A DNA stretch of 64,000 bases from a virus, in IMG/VR virus record IMGVR_UViG_3300014039_000036, positions 1,904 through 65,903 of that record, one strand, 5' to 3'. The translations under genes and the position numbers were made by a program. Numbering within the stretch: position 1 is the stretch's first letter; each line of letters begins with the position of its first letter. Of the stretch, positions 5,475-15,103 are shown piece after piece. The notes below the pieces were generated by a model that saw only the letters and a program-made list of their open reading frames with translations, was not told where the DNA came from and did no database searches.

Positions 5475-7337
5475 TTAGAAGTCGTCTTTTGCCTTAAAAA
5501 CGTTGTATCTCTCGATGTCGGCCAGGAGCATGTCCATGGGGTCCTTTCCGATCTTGAAGGTGTGGTCTTGGGATTTCGCGATGCTCTTGGCTCCGTATTC
5601 CGGAGTGGAGATATCGCCGTTGACGGAGCACAGCACGCCGGGGCGTCCGCTCTTGGCTATGGCGGACATCTCCTTGAACGTCATGATGTGCTTGCCGTTG
5701 TCCTGAGCGGTCTTGGCCACGGGAACGGTCACGGAGGACCTCTGTCCCGCACCCTCGCCGCGCTCCATCTGCGCGGAGGGCATCTCGACCTGCTTCGCGC
5801 TCCCCTCGTCGGAAGGCTCCTCTCCGGTGACCTCCTTGATAGGCTGAGCGGTGGCGATGGACGTCGGGTCCTGATGGCCCTTCTGCCCGGTTCCGATCTC
5901 CTTGGCGGGCGTGACCTCGTCGGCGGGGACGGAACCCTTCTCGGACGAGCCTCCGAAGTCGAAGTCCCTGATGCTTCTGGCGAGCCAGGAGTTGTCGGGG
6001 ACCATGGTGGACTTGGCGATGTCGCAGTCCACCTCTCCTTCGGGATGCATGATGGCATCCTCGTCCACGGCCTTGGCCGCGCGGTCGTTGTACTGCTTCG
6101 CGATGGCCTCGTGCCCGTCGTAGGGGTCGAGGCTCTTCAGCAGGAGACCGAGGTCCCCCTTGCCCTTCATGAGGTCGGAGATGCTCGGAACGGACTTGCT
6201 GAGGGTGTCCTCGGGGTCCTTGAGCAGACCGTCGTCGGCGTCTATCTTGGACGCTCCTTCTCCGAACAGCGCGTTGCTCGCGCCTTCGGAGCCTGCGCCG
6301 ATGGCGCCCGCATCCTTCTCGATGCCCACGGTGTCTCCGCACTCGGCGGACTTCTTGATGTCGTCGTCCCCGTCATCGACCTTCTCCTCGGAAGGCTCCT
6401 TCTCCGGGGACTCCTCCGCAGGAGGCTCGTCGGAACCCTCTGCGGGACCTGCCTCCGGTGCGGGCTCTCCCTCGTCTCCGAGGTCGGGGACCGCGTCCAC
6501 GGGGGGCTCCGCGGGAACAGGACCCTCTCCGCCTGCTCCGCCGTTGGCGAGAGCGTCGAACTCCGTCAGAAGCGACTTGATCTTGTCTCCCAGCTTGCCC
6601 AGGGAGGCGATCGATGCGCTGTCTCCGCGGTCCACCGCGGATGCGAGAGCATCCTTGAGACTGTTGTTGAACACGGTCGTGATGTCCCCTCCTCCGATGT
6701 CGGCCTCGGGACCCTCGACTCCTTCGAGTCCCGTCGCATCGGCGGGACCCGCCTCGGGGGCCGCGTTCTGCGGACCTCCCAGCCCGAGGGACGCCATCAG
6801 CTCGTTGAAGGCCGCGTCGTCGTCCTCGGTCCACTCATCGTCGTCGTCTTCCCCGTATCCCTCGTCGAGACCGTCGGCACCCTGCACGGGCGCGGCGGAA
6901 TCCCCTGCCGGAGCTCCGGCTTCGGGAGGCATCTCCGGCATCCCCGCTTCGGGACCCGGGGCCCCCTCTGCGGGGGGCATATCGGGAGGCAACTCCTCTT
7001 TGTCTGCCATTGCATCACCTGCCAAATCCATGCCGGTACCGTCGGACTCCCCGCCCGGCAGACCTTCAGGGGGCATGCCTCCGGCATCGGGTCCCATAGG
7101 AGCTCCTCCCATGGGGTCCATGCCGGGTGCACCGCCCGCATCCGCGGCTCCGGCGTTGGCGGCATCGACCGCGGCGTCGTCTCCGAGGATGGAAGGCACT
7201 ACCTGCGCGGTGCGCGACGCATCGGTCCTGATCTCGTTGAGGGCAGCCAGCATGGTGTCCAGCTTCTCGGAGATCGAGGCTTTCTCGATGCGTGCGGAGT
7301 CCTTGCAGAACTGCTCCCACGCTTCATCGGTGTCCAT
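5475..7337 (-). CDS. Capsid scaffolding protein (acidic, low complexity)
   Basis: 620 aa D/E/G/P/A-rich protein between protease and MCP; several xxK(S/A) motifs. Confidence 0.6.
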   Translation of the reverse strand: MDTDEAWEQFCKDSARIEKASISEKLDTMLAALNEIRTDASRTAQVVPSILGDDAAVDAANAGAADAGGAPGMDPMGGAPMGPDAGGMPPEGLPGGESDGTGMDLAGDAMADKEELPPDMPPAEGAPGPEAGMPEMPPEAGAPAGDSAAPVQGADGLDEGYGEDDDDEWTEDDDAAFNELMASLGLGGPQNAAPEAGPADATGLEGVEGPEADIGGGDITTVFNNSLKDALASAVDRGDSASIASLGKLGDKIKSLLTEFDALANGGAGGEGPVPAEPPVDAVPDLGDEGEPAPEAGPAEGSDEPPAEESPEKEPSEEKVDDGDDDIKKSAECGDTVGIEKDAGAIGAGSEGASNALFGEGASKIDADDGLLKDPEDTLSKSVPSISDLMKGKGDLGLLLKSLDPYDGHEAIAKQYNDRAAKAVDEDAIMHPEGEVDCDIAKSTMVPDNSWLARSIRDFDFGGSSEKGSVPADEVTPAKEIGTGQKGHQDPTSIATAQPIKEVTGEEPSDEGSAKQVEMPSAQMERGEGAGQRSSVTVPVAKTAQDNGKHIMTFKEMSAIAKSGRPGVLCSVNGDISTPEYGAKSIAKSQDHTFKIGKDPMDMLLADIERYNVFKAKDDF

Positions 7338-9170: not shown

Positions 9171-9799
9171 CGGTACCTCGGACGCCTCGCCTGCCTGCCT
9201 TCGATTCCCATGTTCATGTTCTCCTTCTTCCAGAGGTTCTTGTCCGTGTAGGACGGGTCCTTCGTGCCCTCTATCGTGCACTCCGATGCGGGCATGGCCC
9301 TGATGCTCTCCGCCAGGGTCCCCTCCCTCGGCTCCCCTGCTTCGTTGACGGCGGAGCTGTAATCCTCGACATAGCGCTTCGCGTTCTCGGCGATGCGCTT
9401 CGCCACATCCTCCACCGTAGGCGGGAACGTGTCCCATTCCGCTTCGACATCGAGGATGTCGAGGGTCCTGTACAGCGCGGGACGCATGAAAGGATTGGGC
9501 ATCGCACCGTGCTCCATGACCATGCTGTACACCTTGTCCGCATAGGCTTCGGAATAGCCTCTGGCGGCGGCCCAGTCCCTGAACTTCTCCCTGGTGAGGG
9601 TGATCTTCGGATTCTTGACTCCCATGGGTCCGCGCTTGGTGTGGTCCGCAGGCCTGGTGCCGAACTCCACGTATGCGGCGTACGGAGCATCGGCCACCAC
9701 GACCCATTCGTCCAGCAGGCCCATCTCCTCCAGACGCTCCTTCAGAGCCTTCTCGATCTCGTCACGGAGCCGTGCCTCGTCGATGACCACCTCGCTCAT
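9167..9799 (-). CDS. HK97 gp10-like neck/tail-completion protein
   Basis: APYAAYVEFGT and PNPFMRPA motifs; ends CGA-TGA, with the CGA overlapping the next ATG. Confidence 0.7.
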   Translation of the reverse strand: MSEVVIDEARLRDEIEKALKERLEEMGLLDEWVVVADAPYAAYVEFGTRPADHTKRGPMGVKNPKITLTREKFRDWAAARGYSEAYADKVYSMVMEHGAMPNPFMRPALYRTLDILDVEAEWDTFPPTVEDVAKRIAENAKRYVEDYSSAVNEAGEPREGTLAESIRAMPASECTIEGTKDPSYTDKNLWKKENMNMGIEGRQARRPRYR

Positions 9800-11511
9800 T
9801 CCATGCTCCCGTCGGCCTCCCTCTTGGAGAGGTCCACCTCGTCCTCGGCATCGCCTATCTCCTCGTCCTCTCTGCGGGCGGTGCCCTTCTCGGGAGGCCC
9901 GTCTCCGTCCCCGGGCATCATCCCTCCGTCGGCGATAGGCTGCTGGGCCATCTGCGCCTGCATCTTCGCCTGCGCCTCCTGCTCCTTGCGCTGGATCTGG
10001 TCGATGGGCTCCTCGGAGTACCTGAACTCGCCGTCCACGTAGCGGATGTCGAATCCGAGGGACTTCATCATCTGGGCCTCCTGCATCTTGTCCATCCTGC
10101 GCTTGGCGTCGGTGTACGCCTTGGACGGCCTGTTGACCCTCAGCTGCCAGTCGGTTATCTTCGGGAACCAGCTGAGTATCCAGTCGCACAGCCTGTCGAT
10201 GAAGTTGTACTTGTCCATCAGATAGCGGTCCATGACGGTGATCTGCTGGGACTCGTTGTTCATCCCCCCGGAGGCCTCCACGTCTCCTGCGAACAGGTTG
10301 GGGAGCCCTCCGTGGGCGCACAGCCTGTTCCTGATGTCGTCCTTGACCTGCAGGGCCTGCGAGGCGTCGTCGGTGCCCAGCTCCAGTGTCTGGGCCTTCA
10401 TCTCCGCCGTCCCCGGGATCTGGGGAGGAGTGCAGATGATGGGGATGGAGTTCGTATTGGTGGACAGCACGTCCTGCACGCCCTTGGCCATGGACTCCGC
10501 ATCCTGCTCGTTGAACCCGGGCAGGATGACGATCTTCCTGACGTACCCGAACTTATATCTGGACAGGAAGTGCTTCTCCAGATAGTGGTAGGTGAGGAGG
10601 TCGTCCTCTATATCGAACCACGTGGGGATGCCGTATGTGAGGGAGGGTCTGAACCAGTGGTCCTGATAGACCTCCTCCTGGGTGTACAGCCAGTACTGCC
10701 CGTTGCCTCCGGGGGACTCTCCGATCTGCCAGTAGGCGGGGTATATCTCCTTGCCCTCCTGCGACAGCTCGTAGAGCTTCTCCTCGTCCGTGTCGATGTC
10801 GATCTTGCTGCATCTGTCCTCGCGGATGAAGCCGTAGGTGGTCCCCGGCTTCCCGGTCCTGTCGAACAGGCACATGACGTACTCGGGAGCCTCGGCGATG
10901 AACTCCAGGGGGTAGGCCCTCTCCAATCTCCCGGTGTCCTTGTCTATGAGGTCCCCGGTGACGCACAGGATATACGCCTGATTGTTGAGATACTGCGACT
11001 CCGCATAGGACCTCATGACCTCCTTGAGCGTCTGTCCGTTGTCGTTGGCCTCCTCCATGAAGCTCTTGCCGTTCGGACGGACGAAGTACGCCTGCTGGCT
11101 CCAGTCCGGTCTCCTGAGCCTCGCGGAGCCGCACTGGGGGCACCTGTCGATCTCGGTCTGGGACTCGTACCCGCAGTCCTCGCATTTCTTGTCGAACTTC
11201 GGCACGAGGCTCAGGTCGTGCCTGAACAGCTCCGTGGTCGCACGGGTGCAGATGGTGGACAGCACCGAGACCTCGCGCCTGTACCAGTTCATCAGGGTGT
11301 ACATCATCCAGAAATTGGACTGCTCCGCGACGCGGTAGTACTGGTTGGTCGGACGCTCGGCGTTGGCCACGGCCACGTTGATGCGTTTGAACTCGTCCTG
11401 TCTGCCGATGACGTCTTCCGTCCCCGCTCCCATCTGGGACAGCGTGATCGGGGGAAGGCTCTGCTGCATGGATGGCGCCGCAGGCACCGATGCGCTTCCG
11501 ATTATCCTCAT
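9796..11511 (-). CDS. Portal protein
   Basis: 571 aa directly after TerL; portal-like DxxRNRLCAHGGLP and acidic tail; contains a CxxC-x10-CxxC insertion. Confidence 0.8.
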   Translation of the reverse strand: MRIIGSASVPAAPSMQQSLPPITLSQMGAGTEDVIGRQDEFKRINVAVANAERPTNQYYRVAEQSNFWMMYTLMNWYRREVSVLSTICTRATTELFRHDLSLVPKFDKKCEDCGYESQTEIDRCPQCGSARLRRPDWSQQAYFVRPNGKSFMEEANDNGQTLKEVMRSYAESQYLNNQAYILCVTGDLIDKDTGRLERAYPLEFIAEAPEYVMCLFDRTGKPGTTYGFIREDRCSKIDIDTDEEKLYELSQEGKEIYPAYWQIGESPGGNGQYWLYTQEEVYQDHWFRPSLTYGIPTWFDIEDDLLTYHYLEKHFLSRYKFGYVRKIVILPGFNEQDAESMAKGVQDVLSTNTNSIPIICTPPQIPGTAEMKAQTLELGTDDASQALQVKDDIRNRLCAHGGLPNLFAGDVEASGGMNNESQQITVMDRYLMDKYNFIDRLCDWILSWFPKITDWQLRVNRPSKAYTDAKRRMDKMQEAQMMKSLGFDIRYVDGEFRYSEEPIDQIQRKEQEAQAKMQAQMAQQPIADGGMMPGDGDGPPEKGTARREDEEIGDAEDEVDLSKREADGSME

Positions 11512-11538
11512 ATAGACACCTCTATCCTCTCCGAAGGT

Positions 11539-14034
11539 TTAAAAATCTCTTTTCGATGAGAACACCCTGCGACTCCTCGGGCTTTCACCTCCCTTCGACG
11601 GAGTCACACCTCCTTTGGCTTCGAAGACGCGTGCTGTAGCGTTGATGAAGAACGGTGTACTACAATAGCGTACAGCGTCAAGGCAATTCCCTACTAATGT
11701 CTTACAGGCGAAGAAATCATGCGCCTCATCCACTGTGAGATCATAGACATACTCGAAACGTCTGGTCGATTCAACAGCCTTTATCTTTTGAAGCCGGCAT
11801 TTCTTTGCCAGTTCCACGGAGTCTGAGCTGAGCCCCACATGTTTCAGAACAGGTCCGAGTCTTGTAGTATTTGTTTGTCTTGAAAGTCCCTCCACATATG
11901 ACACAAACGCGTTCCTCGTCATCGACCCCGGATGCTCTACGGGCTGCAGATTTACAGGCATTTGAGCAGAATTTTCCATGACCTGGCTTGGCCATATACT
12001 CTTTTTTGCAATATTGGCATATGTGTTCGACCGGTTTGAGATTCTGTGCGACTTGTTTTCCATGTTGGACATGCCACTCGTGCCCCTCTTCGGAAGCATG
12101 CCACGCTCTGCACAGTGATTGTTGTTTAGAATTGAGGTCCTGCATGGTTTTGCGCCTATCCTCTCTACGCTCCTGCGACCAGGGATGTCTCTGCATATGT
12201 TCTGCGCGTGTGAGACATTCGAGATTGGAGATATCGTTGTTGTCTGGATTCTCATCGATATGATGGATTTCATAGCCCTTTGGAATAGGCCCGTTGTATT
12301 GTTCCCAAATATATCTGTGTAATAATATACACTTGTATCCATCATATCTTCTGAAATACACGCGCATGTCACGGGCTTTTGCATCAGGATATCTGGACCA
12401 GATATACCCGTCATACTCGATACGTTCGCTTTTTGCATTTTCTGAACGGGGTCTTGCCATTGGATTACCTCATCATATACCGTAAGACATCCAAGACACT
12501 TAAGCCCTTCCATCGTCATAATCGGATGGTCTTTCGTTCCTTCCAACACAGTACCATTCTCGAATTCTACACGCCATATCTCCGCCGGCAACGGACGGGC
12601 GATACCTGCGGCCAGCACCTTCCTGTAGCCGAGATGGGTCAAGACCATGTCCCCGACCTCGATGTCCTCGATAGGCACCTCTCCGTGATCGGTGATCACC
12701 ATGGTGCCCGCTACAAGACAATGATCGAACTCTTTGATCGGTTTTTCAAGCCATACCCCATCAGCTGAACGATCATACGCGTAATTCTGCAGCTCTATGA
12801 GCGTGTTCCTGCACGATTGATGGACGTGCCATTTGAACGACTGGAGCCTCTGGATACCGTTCTTCAGGGAGTCGGGACCCTTCAGAGCGGGACGGATGGC
12901 GGGAAGCGCCCATGTGATCGGTATCTGGTTGCCGTGCTCGTCGATGGTCGCCTCGGTGAGCCCTCTCTGGAGCTCGCTGATGGACTTCGGCTCCGCGGCG
13001 TCCGCCCAAATAGTCTCCTTGCCGTAGCCCATGGCGCAGATGCGCTTGGCGATGGCGAGGTTGGTCATTCCGCGGTCGTACATCTCGTCGAACACCCACA
13101 GCTCCCTTGCTCCGAGGTCGAAGAACACCGCCACGAAGGCGTTGTACGATATCGAGTACCCGAAGTCCAGTCCGAAGGAGAGCACTCCGCGGGGGTGCTG
13201 CTCTATGACCTCCTTGATGTCGAAGGCCTCCTCCTGCCAGTTCTCGTAGATCAGACCCTCGGCGATACCCCAGTCCCCGTCGCACACGATACGGGCGAGA
13301 CGCGGAGCGTCCTTGTAGAGGGCCATGTACTGCGCCCTGTCCACGTCGGAGAGATGCTCGTTGCATCTGAACGTGGTCGTTATCGCGAGGGTGTCGGGAC
13401 GGGGATGGTCGAAGAACCTCGCCTTTATCCACGAGGTGGCGGACCATGGGTTGAACGTCCCGGTGTACTGCTTCCACAGATACGGCGGAAGGTCTCCGCG
13501 TATGGACATGGCCATGGTGTCGAAGTCGTTCTCGTTGCCGAAGTCCGCGAACTCCTCCAACCACACCCAGCAGAGGTATCCTTCGGACACTCCGACTGAT
13601 GCCAGCTTGAGAGGGTCGTCCATTCCTCTGAACAGGATGACCTGCTCGTTGGGGCGGGACTCGGACTTGCGGTGCGTCATCCTCAGATTGGACGGCGAGA
13701 CCTCCCAGCTGTCGTGCAGGTACAAGCGGTTGATGGCCCACTCCAGCGTGGCGAACACCGAGTCGCGGAGGGTGTTGGTCTGCTTCTTGATGACCAGCAG
13801 ATTGGCCTCCGGATAGCGCTCCAGATGCCAGATGAACCACAGAGCGGCGGTGTAGGACTTCTTGGAACCCTTGGAGCCCTTCACCATGCGGTAGAGGTCC
13901 TTGCTGTTCCAGAATTCGTCGTATCCCTCTCCGATGAGCCTGCGGAGGGAGATGATCGGCCTTCCGTCGGGACCTATGGGGTCGCCGTAGCGGGTGACGG
14001 GCGCATCGCTCGGAGCGATCGCTGTACTCGGCAT
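11539..14034 (-). CDS. terL: Terminase large subunit (PBSX-like) containing an intein
   Basis: Walker A-like KGSKGSKKS, WLEEF (Walker B), TFNP, GLDFG, and DH[intein]CLDAVRY nuclease motif. Start 14034 has an upstream GAAGGAG RBS. Confidence 0.92.
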   Translation of the reverse strand: MPSTAIAPSDAPVTRYGDPIGPDGRPIISLRRLIGEGYDEFWNSKDLYRMVKGSKGSKKSYTAALWFIWHLERYPEANLLVIKKQTNTLRDSVFATLEWAINRLYLHDSWEVSPSNLRMTHRKSESRPNEQVILFRGMDDPLKLASVGVSEGYLCWVWLEEFADFGNENDFDTMAMSIRGDLPPYLWKQYTGTFNPWSATSWIKARFFDHPRPDTLAITTTFRCNEHLSDVDRAQYMALYKDAPRLARIVCDGDWGIAEGLIYENWQEEAFDIKEVIEQHPRGVLSFGLDFGYSISYNAFVAVFFDLGARELWVFDEMYDRGMTNLAIAKRICAMGYGKETIWADAAEPKSISELQRGLTEATIDEHGNQIPITWALPAIRPALKGPDSLKNGIQRLQSFKWHVHQSCRNTLIELQNYAYDRSADGVWLEKPIKEFDHCLVAGTMVITDHGEVPIEDIEVGDMVLTHLGYRKVLAAGIARPLPAEIWRVEFENGTVLEGTKDHPIMTMEGLKCLGCLTVYDEVIQWQDPVQKMQKANVSSMTGISGPDILMQKPVTCACISEDMMDTSVYYYTDIFGNNTTGLFQRAMKSIISMRIQTTTISPISNVSHAQNICRDIPGRRSVERIGAKPCRTSILNNNHCAERGMLPKRGTSGMSNMENKSHRISNRSNTYANIAKKSIWPSQVMENSAQMPVNLQPVEHPGSMTRNAFVSYVEGLSRQTNTTRLGPVLKHVGLSSDSVELAKKCRLQKIKAVESTRRFEYVYDLTVDEAHDFFACKTLVGNCLDAVRYCSTPFFINATARVFEAKGGVTPSKGGESPRSRRVFSSKRDF
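11686..12720 (-). mobile_element. Intein (345 aa) in the TerL nuclease motif DH|CxDAxRY
   Basis: Block A CLVAGTMVIT, block B GTKDHPIMT, block F VYDLTVDEAHDFF, block G LVGN followed by +1 Cys. Penultimate residue is Gly rather than His. Confidence 0.9.
11771..12460 (-). CDS. HNH endonuclease with zinc-ribbon repeats, nested out of frame inside the intein
   Basis: LHRYIW...GPIPKGYEIHHIDENPDNNDISNLECL...H; CQYC/CSNAC/CVIC/CSETC clusters; own GAGGT RBS 6 nt upstream. Confidence 0.85.
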   Translation of the reverse strand: MARPRSENAKSERIEYDGYIWSRYPDAKARDMRVYFRRYDGYKCILLHRYIWEQYNGPIPKGYEIHHIDENPDNNDISNLECLTRAEHMQRHPWSQERREDRRKTMQDLNSKQQSLCRAWHASEEGHEWHVQHGKQVAQNLKPVEHICQYCKKEYMAKPGHGKFCSNACKSAARRASGVDDEERVCVICGGTFKTNKYYKTRTCSETCGAQLRLRGTGKEMPASKDKGC

Positions 14035-14512
14035 CGATGCATTCTCCTTCGACCGGGAGCGGTTCGTCATCATCGTCGTCATCGTCATCGGACGATGCGC
14101 TCATGGTGACCACCTCGGAGGCCGTCATCACGCCGTTCTCTATGCGGACGTCCTTGGCGGACGTGATGGCCAGGTCGTCCACGAACGTGGGCGCCTCGAC
14201 CTGCATGAGCTGCTCCTTGACAGGCTCCAGGCCGCCGTACTTGAACAGGAACTCCGCCTTGCGCTGGTCCCCCTGCACGGCATCGGCCGCGAACTGCATG
14301 ATGATACGGGTCCTGATGTCCACGTTGGCGTTCTTGTACGCCTTGAGAGGCCTCTGTCCGTCCACGTAGTCCATCGGACCCTCCTTCACCGGCGATGCGA
14401 GAACGGTGTTGATTATGTTCTGGATGTCGCGGCGGTTGTTCTTCTTGGCGAGGGCCCTCTCCGCCAGCACCTCCGTGGGAGTGTATAGGCTGGGTGCATC
14501 GGACATGGGCAT
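14006..14512 (-). CDS. Putative terminase small subunit
   Basis: Immediately upstream of TerL; helical protein with acidic tail; CGA at 14006-14008 (standard code would run to 12773 inside TerL). Confidence 0.55.
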
Positions 14513-14979
14513 CGCCTGTTGAACGCTCCGTCCTTCTTCATCCTTCCGAGAGGAGTCAGCTGTCTGCACCTTAGGCATCTGTCCGGAAGAGTTTTCAGGG
14601 ACATCCCGTATTTGAGCTTGCATATCGGGCAGGTCCACCCGTCGTCGGGGTTGTCCACGATCTCCCCGCCTTCGAAGTTCTCTCCGTAGAACGAGAAGTA
14701 CATCTCCGCGAGATTGTCGCTCAGGGCGAACTCCCTGGCGCACATATCGTAGTCTCCCTTGGTGGCGCGGTACTTCTCCATCTCCGCATCCTGTCCCGAA
14801 CGGACCGTCATCCTCTCGATGCCGCGCTTCTGCTGCCTGTAGATGTCCAGCCTGAGCCTGTTGGCGACCTCCGGGTCCACCCAGCGCTCCAGTAAGCTAG
14901 CCGGCATAATCCTCAGCTCGTACGGCGTGAAGGCGTGATGCATCCGTTCCCTGAATTCCTCCGATGCCCGCGATGTCAT
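14512..14979 (-). CDS. Hypothetical protein with C-terminal Zn ribbon
   Basis: CPIC...CLRC; ends at CGA 14512-14514 overlapping the next ATG (standard code: 14413). Confidence 0.65.
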
Positions 14980-15103
14980 ATGCTGTCTCGATGACAGACT
15001 GCATATATGGGCATTTTGAAGGTATGACGTATACAAGTATAGGTGCGGTATATACAGAATAAAAAGAGGTAAGAGGTTTGGCGGAGCGGAAGCTCCGCGG
15101 ATA

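What the first reader, a model, noticed from the sequence alone, without database searches (positions are those of the whole stretch)
11686..12720. TerL intein with an HNH endonuclease gene nested in a different reading frame
Seen: the 345-aa intein has intact splicing blocks A, B, F and G, but its central ~230 codons read as non-protein-like filler. The same DNA in another frame encodes a clear 229-aa HNH/Zn-ribbon endonuclease (11771-12460) with its own GAGGT RBS, starting just after block B and ending just before block F. The intein frame is free of TAA/TAG/TGA, and of CGA, across this lower-GC stretch, so it is about 690 nt of dual coding. Inference: a free-standing HNH invaded a mini-intein and supplies homing as a separately translated protein. 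I recall similar out-of-frame architectures reported for actinobacteriophage inteins, but not for an archaeal virus. The penultimate Gly (LVGN) is also non-canonical.
Basis: partly seen in the sequence, partly recalled or inferred. Interest (0 to 1): 0.8.

Follow-up and report, generated by a model that had tools for sequence, protein, structure and literature searches.

The report
Terminase intein hiding an out-of-frame endonuclease
The DNA-packaging enzyme gene of this archaeal virus carries a self-splicing protein insert (an intein), and the middle of that insert also encodes, in a shifted reading frame, an intact DNA-cutting enzyme that probably spreads the insert; this two-in-one layout was first described in 2025 and turns out to be old and widespread in phage terminase genes.

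Summary
ORF 11539-14088(-) is a Terminase_3 large terminase (TerL). It is interrupted at its nuclease motif (DH|C) by a 345-aa class-1 intein (11686-12720). A 229-aa HNH_3 plus double zinc-ribbon endonuclease ORF (11771-12460) lies in frame +2 inside the intein linker.

- **Frame kept open.** The TerL frame has no stop across the 690-nt overlap; the other frames have 5-14.
- **Same layout elsewhere.** Thirty-two nested homologues in bacterial phages and archaeal viruses show the same +2 offset and zero stops. Free-standing homologues have 11-16 stops in that frame.
- **Selection sits on the HNH frame.** dN/dS is 0.12-0.25 for HNH against 0.9-1.7 for the intein frame. The catalytic H/N/H residues and the first zinc ribbon's four Cys are invariant.
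- **Structure predictions agree.** The HNH model has pLDDT 91 and best matches I-HmuI (Z 8.1). In the intein model only the two splicing lobes fold; residues 93-297 are disordered.
- **All three allele types exist.** Intein-free, mini-intein and HNH-bearing alleles occupy the same site. Mini-inteins look like repeated HNH losses, so a recent invasion of a mini-intein is not supported.

The kind of element is already known (Gosselin et al. 2025 preprint). This one has a different nuclease family and an archaeal (Methanomassiliicoccales-type) viral host. Splicing, separate translation and homing are inferred, not shown.

The parts
11539..14088 (-). TerL precursor ORF (849 aa from the first ATG; public protein databases hold an 831-aa version from a later start)
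   Evidence: Terminase_3 E 2.4e-40 and Terminase_3C E 2.8e-19. 100% self hit P0002.
12721..14088 (-). N-extein: ATPase domain and most of the nuclease domain, ending ...KEFDH
   Evidence: Intein-free alleles read DH|TLDALRY or DH|CMDA.RY.
11686..12720 (-). Class-1 intein, 345 aa (Cys1 ... Asn345)
   Evidence: C1, T62, H65, D327, H334 and N345 are invariant in 27 homologues.
12445..12720 (-). Intein N-terminal splicing lobe (residues 1-92; blocks A and B)
   Evidence: AlphaFold2 pLDDT 94-97, all-beta HINT-like. Hint_2 match. Wobble-position divergence follows the TerL frame.
11830..12444 (-). Intein-frame 'filler' (residues 93-297): kept open but not selected as protein
   Evidence: pLDDT 30-48 with no secondary structure. 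dN/dS 0.9-1.7 in this frame. The most variable codon position is TerL-frame position 2.
11686..11829 (-). Intein C-terminal splicing lobe (residues 298-345; blocks F and G, ...VYDLTVDEAHDFFA...LVGN)
   Evidence: pLDDT 85-98. Intein_splicing match. Invariant residues.
11771..12460 (-). Nested HNH homing-endonuclease ORF, 229 aa plus stop, frame +2 relative to TerL
   Evidence: HNH_3 E 2.8e-21. dN/dS 0.12-0.25. AlphaFold2 pLDDT 91. I-HmuI 1u3e Z 8.1 and profile E 0.0015.
12467..12471 (-). Shine-Dalgarno-like GAGGT, 6 nt upstream of the HNH ATG (12458-12460)
   Evidence: GAGGT / AGGTGAT / GGAGGT sits at the same place in the close relatives. The motif also lies inside conserved intein codons (D-E/K-V-I-Q-W), so its conservation is ambiguous.
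12197..12265 (-). HNH catalytic core (H66 H67 ... N75 ... N79 ... H88)
   Evidence: Invariant in 27 nested homologues with 34% mean column identity. Coordinates.
11837..12019 (-). Two zinc ribbons (C148xxC151...C165xxxC169; C186xxC189...C204xxxC208)
   Evidence: The first ribbon's four Cys are invariant and the second is mostly conserved. Coordinates.
11539..11685 (-). C-extein, starting with Cys+1 (CLDAVRY...), plus the stop codon
   Evidence: The C.DA.RY nuclease motif is conserved in relatives.

Best explanation
This is a composite selfish element sitting at the nuclease active-site motif (DH|C-LDAVRY) of the large terminase gene of a tailed archaeal virus of the Methanomassiliicoccales-virus type.

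1. The TerL frame encodes a class-1 HINT intein. Its two splicing lobes (residues 1-92 and 298-345) are joined by a ~205-residue linker that only has to stay free of stop codons.
2. The same DNA, read in frame +2, encodes an I-HmuI-like HNH endonuclease with two C-terminal zinc ribbons.

Proposed working, all inferred: the terL mRNA is translated through the overlap; the intein, with its disordered loop, splices itself out and restores TerL. Ribosomes also start internally at the GAGGT-N6-ATG site and make the free 229-aa HNH. That enzyme nicks or cuts intein-less terL alleles of co-infecting relatives near the DH|C/T site. Recombinational repair then copies the intein and HNH into them (homing).

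The arrangement is not a fresh accident. It is an old lineage with a fixed +2 phase, found in TerLs of several Pfam families in bacterial and archaeal viruses. Mini-inteins arise from it repeatedly when the HNH is lost.
For: Shown here:
- TerL, intein and HNH_3 domain calls.
- The intein frame is open (0 stops) while the other frames have 5-14.
- In 32 nested homologues (20.9 kb) there are 0 stops in the TerL frame, against 11-16 in four free-standing homologues. Summed log10 P is -46 under a conservative codon permutation.
- The frame offset is +2 in every locus that has both an intein hit and an HNH hit, including the cultured phages Highwayman, TJE1 and phiCDHM19.
- The most variable codon position switches from TerL position 3 in exteins and splicing lobes to TerL position 2 (= HNH position 3) in the overlap.
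- NG86 dN/dS is 0.12-0.25 in the HNH frame and 0.9-1.7 in the intein frame.
- HNH residues H66, H67, N75, N79, H88 and four Cys are invariant. Intein residues C1, T62, H65, D327, H334 and N345 are invariant.
- AlphaFold2 gives pLDDT 91 for the HNH. For the intein it gives above 94 for the lobes and 30-48 for residues 93-297, from an alignment of the same depth.
- The nearest solved structure is the homing endonuclease I-HmuI.
- Intein-free (P0005, 85% extein identity), mini-intein (132-174 aa, including the published virus vir335) and long alleles share one site.
- The HNH start falls at intein residue ~85-91 and its stop 14-22 aa (10-43 in the closest clade; ~28 in the window) before the intein end in nearly all family members.
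Against: - Nothing functional was tested. Splicing, internal initiation and cleavage of the intein-less allele are all inferred.
- The penultimate His is missing (LVGN).
- The SD-like motif overlaps conserved intein codons, so its conservation does not prove a ribosome-binding role. About a third of distant relatives have no recognisable SD.
- Three close relatives (L088-L090) have ATA where the others have ATG.
- Several free-standing homologues sit next to terminase genes, so a packaging-related role is not excluded.
- The dN/dS method used ignores the overlap and phylogenetic non-independence.
Confidence: 0.85

Rival explanations
1. The HNH ORF in this particular virus is an intact-looking but no longer active or expressed relic. 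The intein persists only because losing it imprecisely would kill TerL.
For: Homing cycles predict endonuclease decay. Decayed copies exist: L219 has stops in the HNH frame while the intein frame stays open, and L106 has a TAG in each frame. Mini-inteins are common. L088-L090 lack the ATG.
Against: The window's ORF is full-length and keeps every invariant catalytic and first-ribbon zinc residue, plus the second ribbon's four Cys. dN/dS is 0.12-0.25 among its closest relatives, including the ATA-start pair L089/L090 at 0.12.
Confidence: 0.07
2. The nested HNH is not mainly a homing enzyme. It is a terminase-associated nuclease that helps packaging, as proposed for HNH genes next to terS/terL.
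For: Free-standing homologues lie directly beside terminase genes: BP10 upstream of terS; PAE1 and CL2 near the genome start. All nested copies examined sit in TerL.
Against: It is dispensable. A relative with 85% identical exteins has no intein, and many relatives carry HNH-less mini-inteins. The best sequence and fold match is the homing endonuclease I-HmuI, and the Pfam family is HNH_3. Its position inside an intein at a conserved active-site motif is the classic homing layout.
Confidence: 0.05
3. The HNH is not started independently. It is reached by a programmed -1 ribosomal frameshift from the TerL/intein frame, giving an N-extein-intein(N)-HNH fusion.
For: L088-L090 have ATA instead of ATG at the start position yet stay under purifying selection. 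An SD-like AGGTGAT could also act as a frameshift stimulator.
Against: Stops in the HNH frame lie 0-9 codons upstream of the start in most loci, leaving almost no room. No X-XXY-YYZ slippery heptamer is visible there. Most members have a plain ATG.
Confidence: 0.03
4. Artefact: an ordinary in-frame HNH intein made to look out of frame by two assembly indels; or an intron rather than an intein.
For: None beyond the general possibility.
Against: The same +2 offset appears in more than 30 independent assemblies and three cultured, separately sequenced phages. Stops flank the HNH ORF in its own frame. The TerL frame is continuous. No Rfam intron or other RNA family matches 11000-13500. None of the long TerL precursors carries an in-frame HNH_3 Pfam domain, and no longer fused protein was found.
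Confidence: 0.01

Closest known systems
[quoted passage not shown]
   Same: The endonuclease ORF is on the same strand, in the third frame, between the splicing blocks. The intein-frame reading has no recognisable fold. TerL is among the host proteins. Closely related intein-free alleles exist.
   Different: That nuclease is annotated as endonuclease VII-like (IPR004211; 1E7D, Z 6.5 over residues 1-67). This one is HNH_3 / I-HmuI-like with two zinc ribbons. No SEA-PHAGES actinobacteriophage appeared among 22 full-length phage hits at E<=1e-10 or among the intein hits. Here the host is an archaeal virus, and the family spans many bacterial phyla. I did not compare the sequences directly.
ShiLan 'hidden HNH' insertion in mycobacteriophage DNA methylase (PMC11855218)
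   Same: An I-HmuI-like HNH with two zinc-finger modules is encoded out of frame inside a host gene whose own frame stays open through the insert. The host-frame product is predicted to be an unstructured loop.
   Different: ShiLan has no detectable splicing domain, so the insert stays in the host protein. Here the HNH sits inside a complete class-1 intein that should remove the filler.
I-HmuI (PDB 1U3E), the group I intron-encoded HNH nicking homing endonuclease of Bacillus phage SPO1
   Same: Best sequence-profile match (E 0.0015) and best fold match (Z 8.1, 100 residues) to the nested ORF. Same H-N-(N/H) core.
   Different: Only 15-17% identity. I-HmuI is intron-encoded and uses helix-turn-helix-type DNA-binding modules, not two zinc ribbons.
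'Fractured genes': split inteins with a free-standing endonuclease gene between the halves (Dassa et al. 2009, PMC2677866)
   Same: An endonuclease gene that is not part of the intein polypeptide occupies the place of the usual endonuclease domain.
   Different: There the host gene is broken into two ORFs and splicing acts in trans. Here the TerL ORF is continuous.
[quoted passage not shown]
   Same: Overlapping-frame endonuclease inside an intein; intein-free and intein-bearing alleles coexist.
   Different: Cellular host gene (dnaX). I read only the abstract and section headings, so the endonuclease family and frame were not compared.

Membership tests
Class-1 intein (HINT splicing domain) | N-terminal Cys/Ser nucleophile at residue 1 | tested here: met
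   Cys1, invariant in 27 homologues.
Class-1 intein (HINT splicing domain) | Block B T-x-x-H | tested here: met
   T62-K-D-H65; T62 and H65 invariant.
Class-1 intein (HINT splicing domain) | C-terminal Asn followed by Cys/Ser/Thr at +1; block F Asp/His | tested here: met
   N345|C+1, with D327 and H334 invariant.
Class-1 intein (HINT splicing domain) | Penultimate His (common but not obligatory) | tested here: not met
   Gly344 here. The position is S/L/A/G/R in the close clade and His in distant members.
Class-1 intein (HINT splicing domain) | HINT fold of the two lobes | tested here: met
   Hint_2 (29.8 bits; cut-off 28.4) and Intein_splicing (35.7 bits; cut-off 35.8, i.e. borderline). AlphaFold2 gives beta-rich lobes with pLDDT above 94. 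No fold search was run on the intein model.
Class-1 intein (HINT splicing domain) | Autocatalytic protein splicing | not testable with these tools
   Inferred, because TerL is essential and the insert interrupts its nuclease motif.
Class-1 intein (HINT splicing domain) | In-frame insert at a conserved site, with intein-free alleles in relatives | tested here: met
   P0005 (85% identity, DH|TLDALRY) and P0071-type alleles (DH|CMDA.RY).
HNH_3 / I-HmuI-like HNH homing endonuclease | Pfam HNH_3 above the gathering score | tested here: met
   75.3 bits against a cut-off of 24.8.
HNH_3 / I-HmuI-like HNH homing endonuclease | Catalytic His ... Asn ... His/Asn core conserved | tested here: met
   H66, H67, N75, N79 and H88 invariant in 27 sequences.
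HNH_3 / I-HmuI-like HNH homing endonuclease | Beta-beta-alpha-metal fold resembling solved homing HNH enzymes | tested here: met
   Model pLDDT 91. 1u3e Z 8.1, rmsd 7.9 over 100 residues, standing above the next match I-PpoI at Z 5.1. The Foldseek E-value is only 0.016.
HNH_3 / I-HmuI-like HNH homing endonuclease | Site-specific nicking or cleavage of the element-free allele | not testable with these tools
   Needs an enzyme assay on an intein-less terL target.
[quoted passage not shown] 2025) | Endonuclease ORF in a different frame, between the splicing blocks, with the intein frame kept open | tested here: met
[quoted passage not shown] 2025) | The endonuclease belongs to the endonuclease VII-like family of that report | tested here: inconclusive
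   Pfam reports only HNH_3. No PhagesDB-type actinobacteriophage appeared among the phage hits. The published sequences were not compared directly.
Split-intein 'fractured gene' | Host gene divided into two separate ORFs | tested here: not met
   A single 849-aa ORF.
Group I/II intron carrying an HNH ORF | Ribozyme structure; host frame interrupted | tested here: not met
   No Rfam match at E<=1 in 11000-13500. The host frame is open and the splicing blocks are present.
Packaging-associated HNH (HK97 gp74-type) | Required partner of terminase, present in all related genomes | tested here: not met
   Close relatives lack the HNH or the whole intein. No functional test was possible.

The most novel reading that the evidence does not exclude
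The +2 nested layout may be a stable, ancient state rather than a transitional accident. On this reading, one lineage of intein plus I-HmuI-like HNH has kept the same overlap phase and boundaries while spreading among the TerL nuclease motifs of several terminase families, in both bacterial and archaeal viruses.

Gene callers suppress the nested ORF, so many inteins now filed as 'endonuclease-less' or 'degenerate' would in fact carry hidden, active homing endonucleases.

A further untested possibility is that embedding the HNH in terL ties its translation to late terL expression, when co-infecting target genomes are present.
Probability: 0.45. Interest if true: 0.7.

Novelty: new variant of a known kind. 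Interest (0 to 1): 0.58.

Why it matters
Inteins with out-of-frame endonucleases were first reported in 2025, as rare oddities of actinobacteriophages. This locus and its more than 30 relatives add three things.

- **A second nuclease family in the same layout.** An I-HmuI-like HNH with two zinc ribbons uses it, always in the same +2 phase.
- **A much wider host range.** Carriers include cultured Acinetobacter, Tetrasphaera and Clostridioides phages and gut methanogen viruses.
- **Clear signs that it is maintained.** The endonuclease frame is under purifying selection, and stop codons are avoided in the host frame.

This bears on how inteins acquire endonucleases (the 'splicing first, endonuclease invades later' idea). 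It gives a natural series of intein-free, mini-intein, decaying and intact alleles for studying the homing cycle. It also exposes an annotation blind spot: the window's own HNH and its closest relatives are absent from a 5.8-billion-protein collection, because the overlapping TerL ORF was called instead.

Tried and rejected
I could not fetch DNA for the protein hits, in particular the 85%-identical intein-free allele P0005 or the mini-intein alleles. Homing-site and co-conversion comparisons at the DNA level were therefore not done.
- **Megablast of terL against phages:** no match.
- **The search for related loci with the N-extein alone:** nothing. With P0005, only distant TerLs and one already known contig.
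- **Rfam scan of 11000-13500 at E<=1:** nothing, so no intron.
- **Search for longer proteins carrying the HNH in frame:** none, which is weak evidence.
- **Foldseek against the PDB:** no hit at E<=0.001. The I-HmuI match rests on VIA-align (Z 8.1) plus the HMM profile.
- **Sequencing-frameshift artefact:** considered and rejected, because the offset recurs in independent assemblies.
- **Programmed frameshifting:** considered, but no slippery site and almost no room.
- **Recent HNH invasion of a mini-intein:** rejected for this clade on the splicing-domain tree. That tree is short (123 columns) with many unresolved forks, so the count of losses is approximate.
- **NG86 dS saturated** for the more distant pairs; only pairs with finite dS were used.
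Full report
**What is in the sequence.** The minus strand of 11539-14088 is one 849-aa ORF. It matches Terminase_3 (residues 65-271, E 2.4e-40) and Terminase_3C (308-463, E 2.8e-19). Hint_2 and Intein_splicing match only at the two ends of a 345-aa insert. The insert (11686-12720) reads CLVAG...LVGN, follows ...KEFDH, and is followed by CLDAVRY.

Inside it, 11771-12460 is a 229-aa ORF in another frame that matches Pfam HNH_3 at E 2.8e-21. Two stop codons lie three codons upstream of its ATG in that frame. GAGGT sits six nt before the ATG. The ORF is offset +2 from the TerL frame. G+C falls from about 0.60 in the N-extein to 0.46 in the overlap.

**Is the open TerL frame more than chance?** Over the 690-nt overlap the TerL frame has no stop. 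The third sense frame has 14 and the antisense frames have 5-9. When the HNH protein is re-encoded with synonymous codons, the TerL frame stays open in only 0.1-1.5% of trials, depending on the codon model.

The comparative evidence is stronger. I fetched loci with a degenerate DNA pattern for the intein's C-terminal block, which does not select on frame, and added phage records found by tblastn.
- Every locus with both an intein N-lobe hit and an HNH hit has the HNH in frame +2 relative to the intein.
- Thirty-two nested HNH ORFs (20.9 kb in total) have zero stops in the TerL frame and typically 10-30 in the third frame.
- Four free-standing homologues have 11-16 stops in the equivalent frame.
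- Permuting each ORF's own synonymous codons is a conservative test, and still gives a summed log10 probability of -46. The sequences are related, so this is not an exact probability.

**Which frame is under selection?** For the window and seven relatives (HNH identity 47-70%), nucleotide divergence by HNH codon position is 0.30, 0.28 and 0.52. A region-by-region control along the whole gene shows the following:

| Region | Most variable TerL-frame codon position | p-distance |
|---|---|---|
| N-extein | 3 | 0.49 |
| Intein N-lobe | 3 | 0.54 |
| Overlap with HNH | 2 (= HNH wobble position) | 0.49, against 0.27 and 0.31 at positions 1 and 3 |
| Intein C-lobe | 3 | 0.49 |
| C-extein | 3 | 0.64 |

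Nei-Gojobori dN/dS is 0.12-0.25 in the HNH frame where dS is not saturated. It is 0.9-1.7 (median 1.3) in the TerL frame over the same nucleotides. Amino-acid identity is 46-87% in the HNH frame and 25-68% in the TerL frame.

In an alignment of 27 nested HNH proteins (mean column identity 34%), the invariant columns are G57, H66, H67, N75, N79, L80, H88 and four cysteines of the first zinc ribbon. In the matching intein alignment the invariant residues are the splicing residues C1, T62, H65, D327, H334 and N345, plus the VYDLTV...FFA block.

**Structure predictions.** Both models used 27-row alignments.
- The HNH ORF gives a confident model with mean pLDDT 91.
- The intein gives pLDDT 94-98 for residues 1-92 and 298-345, but 30-48 with no secondary structure for residues 93-297.
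- The nearest solved relative of the HNH is the intron-encoded homing endonuclease I-HmuI. The profile search gives E 0.0015 and VIA-align gives Z 8.1 over 100 residues, with I-PpoI next at Z 5.1. Foldseek alone gave only E 0.016.

**Alleles and history.** A search with the TerL precursor returned three kinds of relative:
- about 28 long-intein alleles (300-400-aa inteins);
- about 40 mini-intein alleles (125-192 aa);
- many intein-free alleles, including P0005, which has 85% identical exteins and reads DH|TLDALRY, and others that read DH|CMDA.RY.

None of the long precursors carries an in-frame HNH_3 Pfam domain. The 'filler' of 26 long precursors can be aligned and is S/T/N/I/M-rich, as expected for an off-frame reading of a conserved gene.

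The anatomy is strikingly constant. The HNH start lies at intein residue ~85-91 and its stop 14-22 aa before the intein end in most family members, 10-43 aa in the closest clade and about 28 aa in the window.

Host proteins are TerLs of the Terminase_3 type and of the Terminase_6 / T7-RNaseH type. Two of them also carry a LAGLIDADG intein. Carriers include three cultured phages: Acinetobacter phage Highwayman, Tetrasphaera phage TJE1 and Clostridium phage phiCDHM19. They also include MAG contigs labelled Methanomethylophilaceae, Methanimicrococcus, Byssovorax and Dehalococcoidia.

On a tree of the splicing lobes, mini and long inteins are interleaved. Nine changes are needed, and at least five are forced by well-supported branches. 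All long forms share the same HNH, position and phase, so repeated loss is the simpler reading. The tree is short and partly unresolved. A decaying intermediate exists: L219 has stops in the HNH frame while the intein frame stays open.

**Host.** The only phage-database relatives of the portal protein (48% identity) are the two records of Caudoviricetes sp. vir335. This is an 83-kb virus assigned to Methanomassiliicoccales, from baboon faeces. Its TerL also matches the window's intein N-lobe and carries a mini-intein at the same site. Close relatives of the window's element sit on 82-85-kb human-gut contigs. The 'archaeal virus' label is therefore supported by relatedness, not by direct host evidence.

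**Mechanism: what is shown and what is inferred.**
- Shown: dual coding, purifying selection on the HNH frame, conserved catalytic residues in both proteins, a disordered host-frame linker, and presence/absence polymorphism at one site.
- Inferred from established intein and homing biology: the intein splices out of TerL, the HNH is made separately from the internal GAGGT-N6-ATG, and it cuts or nicks intein-less terL alleles so that repair copies the element.

The SD-like motif recurs in the close clade. However, it also lies inside conserved intein codons and is missing in some distant members. L088-L090 have ATA in place of ATG yet remain under purifying selection, so the route of initiation there is an open point.

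**Comparison with the literature.** Gosselin, Arsenault and Gogarten (bioRxiv 10.1101/2025.01.02.630785) report actinobacteriophage inteins, some in TerL, with an 'endonuclease VII-like' endonuclease in frame 3 relative to the intein. The intein-frame region in those has no recognisable fold. That is the same kind of element.

The same group described the ShiLan hidden HNH: I-HmuI-like with two zinc fingers, out of frame in a methylase, and no intein. They also described an out-of-frame endonuclease in the cyanobacterial dnaX intein.

The present family combines the ShiLan-type nuclease with a true intein. None of the 22 full-length phage hits, nor any of the intein hits, is a PhagesDB-type actinobacteriophage, so it appears to be a different lineage from the published TerL cases. 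I did not compare the sequences directly. No paper in the searchable library mentions inteins in Methanomassiliicoccales viruses or in TJE1/phiCDHM19 terL.

**Verdict.** It is a new variant of a recently described kind: a different nuclease family and an archaeal viral host. The added finding is that the arrangement is old, phase-locked and widespread. Mini-inteins in this clade look like products of HNH loss rather than its starting point.

Noticed in passing
L088:7390-7392, L089 and L090 (homologous start position of the nested HNH): Three close relatives on human-gut 82-85-kb contigs have ATA where the window and others have the HNH ATG. This follows from a W-to-Y change in the intein frame. 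L089 and L090 have no upstream in-frame start, yet L089 vs L090 gives dN/dS 0.12 in the HNH frame. How these copies are initiated is unexplained.
   Followed up: partly
L106 (Methanimicrococcus MAG contig JAITUZ010000029.1), around oriented position 7250: One TAG lies in the HNH frame and another TAG, 7 nt later, lies in the TerL/intein frame; both ORFs are otherwise intact. Methanimicrococcus belongs to a pyrrolysine-using lineage (my own knowledge, not tested here), so this could be read-through or a dead provirus.
   Followed up: no
L219:44-805: A 254-aa intein has an open TerL frame, but its nested HNH is decayed: stops and a deletion follow the catalytic core. It looks like an intermediate between long and mini-inteins.
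   Followed up: partly
L161:1252-6165 and L218:926-4273: These are very long precursor ORFs (1638 and 1116 aa) with two inteins each: one with an in-frame LAGLIDADG domain and one of the out-of-frame HNH type. Pfam found no terminase domain in either; L218's C-extein starts with the TerL-like motif S-LDAIRY.
   Followed up: partly
window 11771-12460 and protein database: The window's own HNH and its 64-70% identical relatives are absent from the 5.8-billion-protein collection. More distant copies are present mainly from ~1-kb contigs or from MAGs where the annotator called the HNH. Nested ORFs are systematically missed where the TerL ORF is called.
   Followed up: partly
window 11686-12720 and relatives: In 15 loci, including the window, the intein plus HNH element is 3-20 G+C points below its own N-extein (0.46 against 0.60 in the window). 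The cause could be foreign origin or dual-coding and composition constraints; this was not resolved.
   Followed up: no
window 9500-15000: Many long ORFs overlap the real genes on both strands (for example 12773-14743(-), 656 aa, and 10312-11559(+), 415 aa). They look like by-products of about 60% G+C rather than genes.
   Followed up: no
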